This document shows, one piece after another, positions 207 through 2,306 of a DNA stretch of 64,000 nt (the first letter of the stretch is position 1; each line of letters opens with the position of its first letter). The notes under the pieces are model-generated. The model had not been told where the DNA came from. It made no database searches and was given only the letters and a program-made list of their open reading frames with translations. The stretch is taken from positions 3,387 to 67,386 of the forward strand of contig VGWB01000001.1 of NCBI GenBank assembly GCA_016873755.1, in the 5' to 3' direction. The translations under genes were made by a program, and so were the position numbers. The stretch is from Ignavibacteria bacterium (lineage in GTDB: Bacteria > Bacteroidota > Ignavibacteria > UBA10030).

Positions 207-2306
207 ATGCCATACTTCCCACAAGGACATAAGGACTTCAACGAGCTTAGGCATCTCATCCTCCTCTACGGGGATCCGGCAAAACCATGGACACGGGGGG
301 ACCTTCGCTACTACGTCGCGCATCTGGACCAGAAGGGCGAACCTGACGATTGGTTATTCGACTCGTTCCTGTTTCTCAACGTCAAGGCTGGAACGGGACG
401 TGACTACAGTGCCGATATTAACATCGGTTCGACGATGGCGGGCGAAGGCAATTTTGTCGCTGTCTGCTCTCCGCAACCCGCGAACAAGGGCGACTGGGAG
501 GCCCTTGTTGAATTCTATCTGGGCGAACACGGAGCTCTGCGAAATCTCGATGCAGCAATTGGCGAATGTGCGGACAAGATCGGCCGGCCCTACGGTGCTC
601 GCCGAAACGTCGTGCTGATGCTGCCGTATCCTCACATCACGCAAGGATCGTTTGGCGCCCTGTCGGAAGGTGGAGGAATCCTCGACTTCTCCACGAAGCG
701 CCACAACCTTGCGAAAGCCACGGAGGAGCGCCTCGCAGCCGAGCGGTGGTTGGTGGATGAGTATGTTCAGAGGTTCACGGCCCAGCAGTTCAAGCATCTT
801 GATCTGCTCGGTGTCTATTGGATGTTCGAAACGATATACCGAAGCTGGGACGTTGACGATCACTGGCTGTTGAAAGAGCTGCGGAAACACATACGCGCTC
901 GCGGTCTGAAGTTCTTGTGGATTCCTTTCTGGAGCTCCTACAATGTTCACCTTCTTGATGACTATCAAAAGTACTACTTCGATTTGGCGTTCCTTCAGCC
1001 AAACTACATGTTCTACAAACAGGGGAAGACCATTGCCGCAGCGGCGCATGCAGCTCGGCAGCGCAATGCAGGCATCGAGATGGAATATTACCTGGAGCTG
1101 AACGAGCCGATCGCCGTGCAATCGGAGCGACATGCACGATTCCGCGAATACCTCAACGGGGGCGTCACGTACGGATACATGTCCGATGCCGTCTGTGCAC
1201 ATTTCCAGGGAGCCCGGGCCCTGCAGCGCATGCATATGCACACCGATGCGAGAGAACGCGAATTCTACGAGGACATTTGTCAATTCGTGACGGGGACGTA
1301 TCGGCTCAAATCCGAGATCGAAGAACGCGGCGCGGAGGGGATCGGTCGGGTCGCGCTCTCGGTCGATCTGGGCGGTACGAATCTCCGAGGGGCACTTATC
1401 GATGCGGAGGGCACGATCCATCACCGGGTGAGCGAGCGGACGCCGTCTTCAAAGGAAGAAATCCTTCGGCGGCTGAAGTCCACGTTGCGAGGACTGGTGG
1501 ACGAAGCCCGGAGGCGCGGTGCGCATGTCCATGGAATAGGCGTGAGCACCGGGGGACGCGTGGACTTCGACGCCGGAGTCATTCTGGATTCGACGGCGCT
1601 CCTGTCGGACTGGCAAAACATTCCGTTGCGTGAGATCCTCCAGTTGGAGTTCCAGCTCCCGGTGTCGGTAGACAACGACGGTAACTGCGCGGCCTTGGCT
1701 GAGCTTATGTTGGGTGAGGGCCGCGCGGCCTCCCATTTCATTACGCTCGTGCTCGGTACCGGGATCGGCGGCGGTGTTGTTGTCGACGGCAAGCTCCTGC
1801 GTGGTGCGCGCAACGCCGCCGCAGAGCTTGGTCACATCAGCATAAGTCACGACGGACCAGAGTGCTCATGCGGCAACAAGGGGTGCGTCGAATTGTATGC
1901 GTCAGGTTCGGCTCTGGCTCGCCAGGCGAAGGAACTCGTCAAATCCGGTGCGATCAGGCTCGACAGAAACTCAGATCAGGATGTTAGCGCAGAGGCCCTC
2001 GCGGATGCAGCAAGAAAAGGGAACGCGGCCGCGCAGCAGCTCATAGAACAAGCGGGGACCTCCCTCGGAATCGCTGTTGCAGGCCTTCTCAACACGTTCA
2101 ACCCCGAGCGTATCATTCTCAGCGGCAGTCTCATCAAGCTTGGGGATATGTACATGAGACCTTTCCGGGAGACCGTCAAGGAGCGTTCTATGGCCGTCGC
2201 TCGGGAGACCGCCGTGATCGTCGTGTCAGATCTTTCCGACCCTGGTCTGCTCGGTGCAGCAAGCCTGGTTTTCAGTCGTGGTGCGGTCACCTCCGGCAGC
2301 TCGTGA
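207..2306 (+). CDS. Two-domain protein: N-terminal ~370-aa domain of unknown function fused to a C-terminal ROK-family sugar kinase (NagK/NanK/glucokinase-like)
   Basis: ATG at 207. The C-terminal half has the ROK hallmarks: an ATP-binding 'LSVDLGGTNLRGALID' motif and the Zn-binding 'CSCGNKGCVELYASGSAL' motif. The N-terminal 370 aa has no kinase motif; it may resemble Bacteroidetes DUF-type domains, but this is unverified. Confidence 0.8.
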   Translation: MPYFPQGHKDFNELRHLILLYGDPAKPWTRGDLRYYVAHLDQKGEPDDWLFDSFLFLNVKAGTGRDYSADINIGSTMAGEGNFVAVCSPQPANKGDWEALVEFYLGEHGALRNLDAAIGECADKIGRPYGARRNVVLMLPYPHITQGSFGALSEGGGILDFSTKRHNLAKATEERLAAERWLVDEYVQRFTAQQFKHLDLLGVYWMFETIYRSWDVDDHWLLKELRKHIRARGLKFLWIPFWSSYNVHLLDDYQKYYFDLAFLQPNYMFYKQGKTIAAAAHAARQRNAGIEMEYYLELNEPIAVQSERHARFREYLNGGVTYGYMSDAVCAHFQGARALQRMHMHTDAREREFYEDICQFVTGTYRLKSEIEERGAEGIGRVALSVDLGGTNLRGALIDAEGTIHHRVSERTPSSKEEILRRLKSTLRGLVDEARRRGAHVHGIGVSTGGRVDFDAGVILDSTALLSDWQNIPLREILQLEFQLPVSVDNDGNCAALAELMLGEGRAASHFITLVLGTGIGGGVVVDGKLLRGARNAAAELGHISISHDGPECSCGNKGCVELYASGSALARQAKELVKSGAIRLDRNSDQDVSAEALADAARKGNAAAQQLIEQAGTSLGIAVAGLLNTFNPERIILSGSLIKLGDMYMRPFRETVKERSMAVARETAVIVVSDLSDPGLLGAASLVFSRGAVTSGSS

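What the first reader, a model, noticed from the sequence alone, without database searches (positions are those of the whole stretch)
207..2306. Fusion of a ~370-aa unknown domain to a ROK sugar kinase
ROK kinases (NagK, NanK, Glk) are normally ~300 aa stand-alone proteins. Here the complete kinase, with both the ATP-binding and the Cys-Zn motifs, is the C-terminal half of a 699-aa polypeptide. The conserved N-terminal domain has aromatic-rich motifs ('WIPFWSSYNVHLLDDYQKYYFDLAFLQPNYMFY'), which suggests a carbohydrate-binding or carbohydrate-processing function. The fusion implies substrate channelling to the kinase.
Basis: seen in the sequence. Interest (0 to 1): 0.5.

Follow-up and report, generated by a model that had tools for sequence, protein, structure and literature searches.

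The report
DUF4855 barrel fused to ManNAc-type kinase
One real 699-residue gene joins an uncharacterised sugar-hydrolase-like barrel (DUF4855) to a sugar kinase of the human N-acetylmannosamine-kinase type, and its conserved neighbours point to an amino-sugar breakdown route whose first step is still unknown.

Summary
ORF 207-2306 (+) encodes 699 aa: Pfam DUF4855 (residues 27-359), a variable 15-22-residue linker, and a complete ROK kinase (384-688).

It is not a frameshift artefact. 47 protein clusters from Ignavibacteriota/Bacteroidota, Kryptoniota, Elusimicrobiota, Planctomycetota and one cyanobacterium share the architecture. Both halves also occur as separate genes elsewhere.

The kinase belongs to the ROK subfamily that contains the ManNAc-kinase domain of human GNE (260 bits; other solved ROKs reach at most 159). 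All six ManNAc-coordinating residues are kept, including the discriminating Arg451.

NanE lies within 10 kb in 20 of 27 ROK-containing DUF4855 loci, against 1 of 33 without ROK (p = 4e-9). In Thermotogota, ROK is fused to NanE instead.

Best reading: a cytoplasmic bifunctional enzyme. The barrel frees ManNAc and the kinase makes ManNAc-6-P, which passes to NanE and then NagB. The barrel's substrate and chemistry are inferred, not shown.

It is a new variant of a known kind, of moderate interest, and gives the first functional lead for DUF4855.

The parts
1..156 (+). 3' end of the upstream Hydantoinase_A-like (ASKHA ATPase) gene, cut by the window edge
   Evidence: The frame-1 translation LQPDLFVIVSARIIDLSGL...LLRAETESY matches the C-termini of the 717-746-aa Hydant_A_N/Hydantoinase_A proteins that directly precede DUF4855(-ROK) in L001, L002, L004 and L005.
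207..2306 (+). DUF4855-ROK fusion gene, 699 aa. It has no signal peptide, so it is cytoplasmic.
   Evidence: ORF, domains, N-terminal hydropathy maximum 0.58 with no hydrophobic stretch, and 47 clusters with the same architecture.
285..1283 (+). DUF4855 domain (residues 27-359), predicted (β/α)8 glycoside-hydrolase-like barrel
828..830 (+). Glu208, invariant, three residues after predicted strand β4. Candidate general acid/base.
   Evidence: Invariant in both the 72 stand-alone and the 33 fused sequences. Strand β4 is residues 198-205 in the model. The catalytic role is inferred.
855..863 (+). Asp217-Asp218-His219, an invariant triad at the start of helix α4
   Evidence: Invariant in alignments A1 and A2. 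Role unknown.
1083..1085 (+). Glu293, invariant, last residue of predicted strand β7. Candidate nucleophile.
   Evidence: Invariant in A1 and A2. Strand β7 is residues 289-293. The catalytic role is inferred.
1302..1355 (+). Inter-domain linker (residues 366-383)
   Evidence: 22% mean identity and 15-22 residues long across fused homologues. pLDDT below 50 at residues 374-377 in the full-length model.
1356..2270 (+). ROK kinase domain (residues 384-688) of the hMNK (human GNE ManNAc kinase) subfamily
   Evidence: PF00480 at E 1e-65. Scores 260 bits against PDB 2YHY/2YHW/3EO3, with the next solved ROK at 159 bits. Carries DxGxT 387-391, Arg451, Asn490-Asp491, ExGH 540-543, CxCGxxGCxE 553-562.
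1557..1559 (+). Arg451, equivalent to hMNK Arg477, a ManNAc-coordinating residue
   Evidence: Arg in 7/7 fusions and 13/15 MNK-like stand-alone ROKs, including human GNE. It is Pro/Ser/Leu/Thr/Val in 14/14 glucokinase-type ROKs. The residue's role is taken from PMC5458393, which cites Martinez 2012.
4895..5701 (+). NagB, glucosamine-6-phosphate deaminase
   Evidence: TIGR00502 at 394 bits, cut-off 237.
9328..10140 (+). Second Glucosamine_iso (NagB-like) paralogue
   Evidence: PF01182 at E 3e-20.
10236..10976 (-). NanE, ManNAc-6-phosphate 2-epimerase
   Evidence: PF04131 at E 9e-58. In most fused loci NanE lies 1-54 bp from the fusion gene.
10977..14090 (-). GH38 (Ams1-like) α-mannosidase, a conserved neighbour
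   Evidence: Glyco_hydro_38N/C and Alpha-mann_mid domains. Present in 11 of 60 loci.
24853..26613 (+). Sodium:solute symporter (SSF), a candidate importer
   Evidence: PF00474. Syntenic in L001-L003, L013, L014, L018-L020 and L022.
26286..28400 (+). Amidohydro_3 protein that travels with the SSF gene. The listed start is probably too far upstream.
   Evidence: PF07969 at E 3e-115. The orthologue in L002 is 590 aa.

Best explanation
The gene encodes a cytoplasmic bifunctional enzyme of amino-sugar catabolism. The N-terminal DUF4855 domain is a (β/α)8 glycoside-hydrolase-like barrel, with invariant Glu208 after β4 and Glu293 at the end of β7. It acts on an imported or recycled small glycoside and releases free N-acetylmannosamine (ManNAc). 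The C-terminal ROK domain is a Zn-containing kinase of the same subfamily as the ManNAc-kinase domain of human GNE, and it phosphorylates that ManNAc to ManNAc-6-P. NanE (10236-10976) converts ManNAc-6-P to GlcNAc-6-P. After deacetylation, the NagB-type deaminases (4895-5701, 9328-10140) yield fructose-6-P. Shown here: the architecture, its recurrence, the kinase subfamily and its sugar-contact residues, the statistical link to NanE, and the barrel fold. Inferred: that the barrel is a hydrolase, that its product is ManNAc, and that the barrel acts before the kinase. The natural substrate is unknown. A ManNAc-terminated disaccharide from cell-wall glycopolymers, such as ManNAc-β-GlcNAc, is a reasonable but untested candidate.
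Confidence: 0.5

Rival explanations
1. Same two activities but in the opposite order. The ROK domain first phosphorylates the 6-OH of a ManNAc-terminated disaccharide. DUF4855 is then a 6-phospho-glycosidase that releases ManNAc-6-P directly for NanE. This is analogous to the β-glucoside kinase/phospho-β-glucosidase and MurNAc-6-P-GlcNAc hydrolase logic (named from my own knowledge).
For: The fusion and the NanE linkage fit either order equally well. A ROK β-glucoside kinase that acts on disaccharides is among the solved relatives (4HTL). The enzyme is cytoplasmic.
Against: The sugar pocket residues are those of hMNK, which binds the monosaccharide. Many orthologous DUF4855 genes have no ROK nearby, which is harder to explain if the barrel needs a phosphorylated substrate.
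Confidence: 0.15
2. DUF4855 is not a glycosidase. It is a TIM-barrel lyase, aldolase or isomerase that makes ManNAc from a sialic-acid-like sugar, replacing the missing NanA, so the locus is a variant sialic-acid (nan) cluster.
For: Every canonical nan function except NanA is present near the gene: an SSF-type transporter, a NanK-type kinase, NanE and NagB. NanA/DHDPS-family genes are absent from the window and from 58/60 loci. RpiR regulators accompany the split operons. NanA is itself a TIM barrel (own knowledge).
Confidence: 0.12
3. The module degrades mannose/GlcNAc-type oligosaccharides, for example N-glycan cores such as Man-β1,4-GlcNAc after GH38 trimming. The ROK domain would phosphorylate GlcNAc, mannose or glucose, and the NanE link would be secondary.
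Against: NanE tracks ROK almost one-to-one, and NanE has no role in GlcNAc or mannose catabolism. The kinase fails the glucokinase and GlcNAc-kinase NCBIfam cut-offs and carries the hMNK Arg that glucokinase-type ROKs lack.
Confidence: 0.12
4. Anabolic, GNE-like role. DUF4855 generates ManNAc, for instance from a nucleotide sugar, and the kinase makes ManNAc-6-P for nonulosonic-acid biosynthesis.
For: The domain logic mirrors animal GNE, whose kinase domain belongs to the same ROK subfamily.
Against: No NeuB/NANS-type synthase or CMP-sugar synthetase appears in any annotated locus. The neighbours are catabolic or uptake genes: NagB twice, GH38, GHL10, SSF or ABC transporters, and a TonB-dependent receptor.
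Confidence: 0.04
5. The fusion is an assembly or sequencing artefact that joins two adjacent genes.
For: Adjacent separate DUF4855 and ROK genes do exist in some genomes.
Against: The identical protein is present in an independent JGI data set (P0001). 46 further clusters from different assemblies and phyla have the same continuous architecture with a conserved-length linker. In the adjacent-gene cases the order is ROK then DUF4855, which is the opposite order.
Confidence: 0.01

Closest known systems
[quoted passage not shown]
   Same: It is a two-domain enzyme whose C-terminal ROK domain is a ManNAc kinase of the same subfamily (41-45% identity, 260 bits to PDB 2YHY). All ManNAc-contact residues, the Zn site and the ATP motif are shared. 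Its N-terminal domain supplies the ManNAc.
   Different: The N-terminal domain of GNE is Epimerase_2 (PF02350), unrelated to the DUF4855 barrel. GNE is biosynthetic, whereas the context here (NanE, NagB, GH38, transporters) is catabolic. Stand-alone bacterial ROKs are closer to the window's kinase than GNE is (276-453 against about 255 bits).
Bacterial NanK-NanE step of sialic-acid catabolism (nanATEK-type clusters), including NanE-ROK fusion proteins
   Same: It follows the same chemical logic of ManNAc to ManNAc-6-P to GlcNAc-6-P to NagA/NagB. NanE is adjacent. RpiR regulators sit in the split operons. Thermotogota fuse NanE to the ROK partner beside DUF4855.
   Different: There is no NanA lyase. 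The kinase is not the E. coli NanK type (132-140 bits against cut-offs of 450 and 283; 76-102 bits to solved NanKs). The fusion partner is DUF4855.
(β/α)8 glycoside hydrolases of clan GH-A type and 'GHL' families (e.g. Cwp19/GHL10, GH5, GH42, GH164, PgaB GH153)
   Same: The predicted fold matches, with invariant Glu residues after β4 and at the end of β7 and an aromatic-rich centre. GHL10 genes are the commonest neighbour of DUF4855 (18/60 loci).
   Different: There is no detectable sequence or profile similarity. Structural identity is 5-13%. The acid/base Glu is preceded by Phe, not Asn. No DUF4855 member has a known activity.
Secreted DUF4855 proteins of Bacteroides and others (e.g. B. thetaiotaomicron BT0442)
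   Same: They belong to the same Pfam family. BT0442 lies in a polysaccharide-utilisation locus with GHL10 and DUF5009 genes, and these also accompany the cytoplasmic orthologues.
   Different: Those proteins carry signal peptides or extra domains (F5/8 type C, CarboxypepD_reg, tandem DUF4855) and no kinase. The window protein belongs to a compact cytoplasmic orthologue group at 43-71% identity across phyla.

Membership tests
ROK family (PF00480) | Profile HMM score above the Pfam gathering cut-off | tested here: met
   222.6 bits against a cut-off of 22.9, residues 384-688.
ROK family (PF00480) | N-terminal DxGxT nucleotide-binding motif | tested here: met
   D387-L-G-G-T391. Motif definition from PMC5458393.
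ROK family (PF00480) | Catalytic Asp, ExGH sugar motif and CxCGxxGCx(E/D) zinc motif | tested here: met
   D491, E540-L-G-H543, and C553-S-C555-G-N-K-G-C560-V-E562.
hMNK-type ManNAc kinase (kinase domain of GNE) | The six ManNAc-coordinating residues of hMNK (N516, D517, R477, E566, H569, E588) | tested here: met
   N490, D491, R451, E540, H543 and E562 align without gaps. Residue list from PMC5458393.
hMNK-type ManNAc kinase (kinase domain of GNE) | Arg at the R477 position, which distinguishes the clade from glucokinase-type ROKs | tested here: met
   Arg in 7/7 fusions and 13/15 clade members. Pro/Ser/Leu/Thr/Val in 14/14 glucokinase-type ROKs.
hMNK-type ManNAc kinase (kinase domain of GNE) | ATP-dependent phosphorylation of ManNAc at O6 | not testable with these tools
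   Requires an enzyme assay.
Classical bacterial NanK (NCBIfam NF047821 / NF003461) | Score above the curated equivalog/subfamily cut-off | tested here: not met
   132.4 bits against 450, and 139.8 bits against 283.
ROK glucokinase (TIGR00744) and GlcNAc kinase NagK (NF009835) | Score above the curated cut-off | tested here: not met
   219.9 bits against 260.35, and 100.1 bits against 380.
DUF4855 (PF16147) | Profile HMM score above the gathering cut-off, covering nearly the full model | tested here: met
   211.4 bits against 27, model positions 16-313 of 313.
Glycoside hydrolase, clan GH-A-like (β/α)8 | (β/α)8 barrel fold | tested here: met
Glycoside hydrolase, clan GH-A-like (β/α)8 | Catalytic Glu at the C-terminal end of β4 and Glu at the end of β7 | tested here: inconclusive
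   Invariant E208 (after β4, residues 198-205) and E293 (end of β7, residues 289-293) fit. No coordinates were available to confirm the geometry.
Glycoside hydrolase, clan GH-A-like (β/α)8 | Asn immediately before the acid/base Glu (N-E-P motif) | tested here: not met
   The sequence is M-F207-E208-T.
Glycoside hydrolase, clan GH-A-like (β/α)8 | Hydrolysis of a glycosidic bond | not testable with these tools
   No DUF4855 member has a reported activity.
GHL10 (PF02638; Cwp19 type) | Sequence or profile similarity to the family | tested here: not met
Canonical sialic-acid catabolic (nan) cluster | N-acetylneuraminate lyase NanA (DHDPS family) in the cluster | tested here: not met
   No DHDPS-family hit in window 1-32000 or in 58/60 loci. 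None appears in the Pfam gene lists. It is present only in two Symbiobacteriaceae loci.
Canonical sialic-acid catabolic (nan) cluster | NanE plus a ManNAc kinase plus NagB | tested here: met
   NanE at 10236-10976, the ROK domain, and NagB at 4895-5701.
[quoted passage not shown]
   The N half is PF16147, with no PF02350 hit.

The most novel reading that the evidence does not exclude
DUF4855 founds a new glycoside-hydrolase family. Its cytoplasmic members would be exo-N-acetylmannosaminidases that cleave ManNAc-terminated disaccharides, for example ManNAc-β-GlcNAc from teichoic-acid linkage units or from secondary cell-wall polymers. The full-text library holds no mention of such an enzyme. 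The fused kinase, NanE and NagB would then define a widespread, undescribed route for salvaging or foraging cell-wall ManNAc. That route would be used by Terrabacteria-type lineages for recycling and by Ignavibacteriota/Bacteroidota for feeding on dead cell material.
Probability: 0.15. Interest if true: 0.7.

Novelty: new variant of a known kind. Interest (0 to 1): 0.45.

Why it matters
DUF4855 is a widespread family without any assigned function. It occurs in gut Bacteroides polysaccharide-utilisation loci and in many environmental phyla. This fusion, the separate NanE-ROK fusion next to DUF4855 in Thermotogota, and the tight NanE co-occurrence together give a concrete, testable lead: the barrel works one step away from ManNAc phosphorylation. 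If the barrel proves to be a ManNAc-releasing glycosidase, it would add a new glycoside-hydrolase family and a nan-type pathway that does not start from sialic acid. That would help in annotating amino-sugar turnover in metagenomes. The data also show that the kinase domain of animal GNE belongs to a sizeable bacterial ROK clade, which bears on the origin of that human disease gene.

Tried and rejected
1. PDB sequence searches with the N half, both as a single sequence and as a 72-sequence profile, found nothing up to E = 10.
3. I tested whether DUF4855 is a remote GHL10 relative. hhalign probability was 0.3%, so I rejected this.
4. I tested whether the conserved unknown ~495-aa neighbour is a divergent DUF4127 or is related to the Armatimonadota 475-aa neighbour. 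hhalign probability was below 1%. It also has no Pfam or PDB sequence hit.
5. I suspected that the stand-alone ROK in the syntenic locus L071 was preceded by a frameshifted DUF4855. tblastn finds no DUF4855 remnant there; the upstream sequence is an Eda-type aldolase tail.
6. I suspected that the 647-687-aa proteins with an N-terminal ROK match were reverse-order ROK-DUF4855 fusions. Pfam shows they are tandem ROK-ROK proteins.
7. The promoter/terminator scan of 1-2800 found nothing above the shuffled expectation. The scan does not cover Bacteroidota-type promoters.
8. The Sumerlaeota and Gloeomargarita contexts held no informative sugar genes.
9. PDB matches for the hydantoinase-A-like and PF12831 neighbours gave only family-level names.
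Full report
OBSERVATION

The window contains a single uninterrupted ORF at 207..2306 on the + strand, encoding 699 aa. Pfam places DUF4855 (PF16147) at residues 27-359 (211 bits) and ROK (PF00480) at residues 384-688 (223 bits). The quoted aromatic motif is residues 238-270. The ATP motif DLGGTNLR is residues 387-394 and the zinc motif CSCGNKGC is residues 553-560. There is no signal peptide or hydrophobic N-terminal stretch, so the protein is cytoplasmic.

IS THE FUSION REAL?

Yes, on three lines of evidence.

- Recurrence. A search of 5.8 billion proteins returned an identical sequence from an independent JGI data set, plus 46 further clusters (48-78% identity) with both domains in the same order. 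They come from Ignavibacteriota, Bacteroidota, Kryptoniota, Elusimicrobiota and Planctomycetota MAGs, and where named they are annotated only as 'ROK family protein'.
- Conservation pattern. In an alignment of 33 fused proteins, the N half averages 62% and the kinase half 51% identity to the window protein. The 15-22-residue linker averages only 22%. That is the pattern of two constrained domains joined by a free tether.
- Genome sampling. Among 60 species-representative genomes that carry an orthologue of the N domain, 16 have the fused form.

A frameshift artefact is excluded for practical purposes.

ARE THE HALVES SEPARATE ELSEWHERE?

Yes, in several arrangements.

- Stand-alone DUF4855 proteins of about 370 aa at 43-71% identity are much more common than the fusion. 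They occur in Cyanobacteria, Bacillota, Thermotogota, Armatimonadota, Sumerlaeota, Latescibacterota and others.
- Stand-alone ROKs at 43-68% identity also exist.
- The closest of these (P0230, 67% identity) sits in a Bacteroidota MAG locus (L071). Its downstream gene order is identical to the window's: ACP, ADP-forming acyl-CoA ligase, NagB, DUF4954, HMGL-like, second NagB-like, NanE, GH38, at about 75% nucleotide identity. There is no DUF4855 remnant upstream.
- In Symbiobacteriaceae the two genes are adjacent but in the order ROK then DUF4855.

A neighbour-joining tree of 56 DUF4855 domains places all fused forms in one clade (FCB group, Planctomycetota, Cyanobacteria), with stand-alone forms interspersed. 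Fitch parsimony needs at least six state changes (the tree has no support values). At 50% clustering the fused family collapses to one or two representatives. The picture is one compact fused lineage with repeated fission or loss. In cyanobacteria, the ROK half of the fused L029 protein is most similar to the stand-alone ROKs of Gloeomargarita, whose DUF4855 genes are also stand-alone. Both partners therefore persist after separation.

THE KINASE HALF

Against all PDB sequences, the kinase half scores 260 bits (E 2e-76) to the ManNAc-kinase domain of human GNE (3EO3, 2YHY, 2YHW). The next solved ROK, a glucokinase, scores 159 bits, and classical bacterial NanKs score 76-102 bits. NCBIfam cut-offs for NanK, glucokinase, NagK, allose kinase and others are all missed.

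PMC5458393, citing Martinez et al. 2012, lists Asn516, Asp517, Arg477, Glu566, His569 and Glu588 as the ManNAc-coordinating residues of hMNK. It also gives the ROK signature motifs. The ungapped alignment maps these residues to Asn490, Asp491, Arg451, Glu540, His543 and Glu562, and all are conserved. The zinc ligands and the DxGxT motif are conserved too.

Most of these residues are generic to ROK kinases. The Arg is not:

| Group | Residue at the Arg451 position |
|---|---|
| Fusions | Arg in 7/7 |
| hMNK-like stand-alone ROKs, including human GNE | Arg in 13/15, Gln in 2/15 |
| 'Glucokinase'-type ROKs | Pro/Ser/Leu/Thr/Val in 14/14 |

The same position is Gln, Ile or Tyr in three classical NanKs.

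With the ROK half alone as query, bacterial stand-alone ROKs score higher (276-453 bits) than animal GNE (about 255 bits). The correct statement is therefore that the domain belongs to a bacterial ROK clade that also contains the GNE kinase domain, not that GNE is its nearest relative.

CONTEXT

The first 156 bases of the window encode the C-terminus of a hydantoinase-A-like ASKHA ATPase. This is the same protein that precedes DUF4855(-ROK) in related loci.

The conserved block in Ignavibacteriota, Bacteroidota, Kryptoniota and Elusimicrobiota loci is:

- a PF12831 flavoprotein;
- an unknown protein of about 495 aa;
- the hydantoinase-A-like protein;
- DUF4855(-ROK);
- then, usually on the other strand, NanE, a cytoplasmic Ams1-like GH38 and often GHL10;
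- with an SSF transporter plus an Amidohydro_3 protein nearby, and TonB-receptor/PorV-like genes upstream.

The window has the same layout, with NanE at 10236-10976, GH38 at 10977-14090 and SSF at 24853. The difference is an inserted block that contains two NagB-type genes.

Over the 60 genomes, NanE lies within 10 kb in 20 of the 27 loci that have ROK (fused or separate), but in only 1 of the 33 that lack it (Fisher p = 3.7e-9). In fused loci it is typically 1-54 bp away.

Two independent arrangements link the same three functions:

- Bacillota operons carry an ABC transporter, NanE, ROK, DUF4855 and an RpiR regulator.
- Thermotogota operons carry a 516-aa NanE-ROK fusion beside PF12831, GHL10, DUF4855 and DUF4127.

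An unbiased clustering of all neighbouring ORFs ranks the partners as follows:

| Neighbour family | Loci (of 60) |
|---|---|
| GHL10 | 18 |
| PF12831 | 17 |
| Hydantoinase-A-like | 16 |
| Unknown ~495-aa protein | 14 |
| GH38 | 11 |
| DUF5009 | 4 |

GHL10 and DUF5009 also flank the secreted DUF4855 gene BT0442 in B. thetaiotaomicron. A DHDPS-family (NanA-like) gene is found only in two Symbiobacteriaceae loci.

THE DUF4855 HALF

There is no sequence match to any solved structure, even with a 72-sequence profile. Only one paper in the library mentions the family, in a gene table.

- then GH42, GH164, GH2, GH35, GH18 and others.

Sequence identity to these is 5-13%. Foldseek's best hits are GH20 and GH18 HexNAc-acting barrels, but with TM of only about 0.4. 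This places the domain in the GH-barrel fold class and in no particular family.

Residues invariant in both stand-alone and fused forms include D52, N72, R175, E208, D217-D218-H219, K223, Q264, N266 and E293, plus many aromatics. E208 lies just after predicted β4 and E293 lies at the end of β7. Those are the positions of the acid/base and nucleophile in clan GH-A retaining hydrolases (family knowledge). However, the preceding Asn of the N-E-P motif is Phe here, and I could not inspect coordinates. The catalytic assignment is therefore an inference.

The full-length model has pLDDT 88.6 and pTM 0.80, with a disordered linker. The pTM hints at a defined domain arrangement, but no PAE or coordinates were available.

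MECHANISM

The best-supported reading is a cytoplasmic two-step enzyme. The barrel releases ManNAc from a small imported or recycled glycoside. The hMNK-type kinase converts the ManNAc to ManNAc-6-P. NanE then gives GlcNAc-6-P, and NagB, after deacetylation, gives fructose-6-P.

- Shown: the architecture, the kinase subfamily, and the NanE and NagB linkage.
- Inferred: hydrolase chemistry, ManNAc as the product, and the order of steps.

As a candidate substrate class I note ManNAc-containing cell-wall polymers. PMC6030368 describes the ManNAc-GlcNAc linkage disaccharide of teichoic acids and the [4)-β-GlcNAc-(1-3)-4,6-Pyr-β-ManNAc-(1] repeats of secondary cell-wall polymers. These are spread through Firmicutes, Cyanobacteria and other phyla. 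The library holds no mention of an N-acetylmannosaminidase. This substrate idea is speculative.

The rivals are:

- kinase first, then a phospho-glycosidase;
- a NanA-replacing lyase;
- an N-glycan-core/GlcNAc route with GH38;
- a GNE-like anabolic role;
- an artefact.

Their evidence is set out in the rival-explanations section.

Several observations remain unexplained. Among neighbours, the PF12831, unknown ~495-aa and hydantoinase-A-like trio has no role in the scheme. No NagA was found. In addition, 33 of 60 orthologue loci have no ROK or NanE nearby.

COMPARISON AND NOVELTY

The protein works like GNE in outline, with a ManNAc-producing domain joined to an hMNK-type kinase. It is not a GNE, because it has no Epimerase_2 domain and sits in a catabolic context. 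It shares the NanK-NanE-NagB logic of nan clusters but lacks NanA, and its kinase fails the NanK family cut-offs.

The architecture is already present in public databases but is unannotated, and as far as the searchable literature shows it is undescribed. I class it as a new variant of a known kind. It is of moderate interest, chiefly as the first functional handle on DUF4855.

LIMITS

- The neighbourhood census used single-sequence phmmer (E ≤ 1e-6) on stop-to-stop ORFs within ±10 kb of often truncated MAG contigs, so absences are soft.
- The tree is neighbour-joining without support values.
- All structural statements rest on predictions.

Noticed in passing
window 5904-7892 (+); also L071 5732-7711 and L011 11261-13396: A 662-aa DUF4954+DUF6819 protein (left-handed β-helix-like, uncharacterised) sits beside a NagB gene in the window, in L071 and in L011. 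This may be a recurrent pairing with glucosamine-6-P deaminase.
   Followed up: partly
window 2485-10140 (+): A block of ACP, ADP-forming acyl-CoA ligase, NagB, DUF4954, an HMGL-like (homocitrate/isopropylmalate-synthase-like) protein and a second NagB-like gene is inserted between the fusion gene and NanE. The same block, at about 75% nucleotide identity, follows a stand-alone ROK in L071.
   Followed up: partly
window 14421-20021 (+): An 1866-aa BNR/Sortilin-Vps10-type repeat protein with FN3/PhoD_N-like segments and a type IX secretion C-terminal sorting domain.
   Followed up: no
window 20625-23003 and 23040-24704 (+): Two adjacent caspase-like (Peptidase_C14) proteins with CARDB, Glucodextran_B and DUF4384 N-terminal domains.
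   Followed up: no
window 24853-26613 and 26286-28400 (+): The SSF transporter ORF and the Amidohydro_3 ORF overlap by 328 nt as listed mechanically. The orthologue in L002 is 590 aa, so the true Amidohydro_3 start is probably near 26.6 kb. The pair is syntenic in several related loci.
   Followed up: partly
L005 6336-7832; also 13 other loci, e.g. L013 6284-7795: A conserved protein of about 495 aa always lies between the PF12831 flavoprotein and the hydantoinase-A-like ATPase. It has no Pfam hit, no PDB sequence hit and no relation to DUF4127.
   Followed up: partly
L009 728-2278; L061, L065: Thermotogota encode a 516-aa NanE-ROK fusion in an operon with an RpiR regulator, PF12831, an ABC transporter, a 985-aa GHL10 protein, DUF4855 and DUF4127.
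   Followed up: partly
P0346-P0363 (representative library): A family of proteins of about 650-690 aa consists of two tandem ROK domains.
   Followed up: partly
L037 2157-14363: A Symbiobacteriaceae operon combines a heparinase II/III-like lyase (DUF4962+Hepar_II_III_C), three GFO_IDH_MocA oxidoreductases, an ADH, ROK, DUF4855, an MR_MLE enzyme, a DHDPS-family aldolase and an esterase. This points to a uronic-acid or amino-sugar polymer as the substrate there.
   Followed up: partly
Protein hits P0228-P0284 vs P0285-P0294: The ManNAc-kinase domain of animal GNE falls inside a bacterial clade of stand-alone and DUF4855-fused ROKs that share the Arg477-equivalent residue. This bears on the bacterial origin of that domain.
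   Followed up: partly
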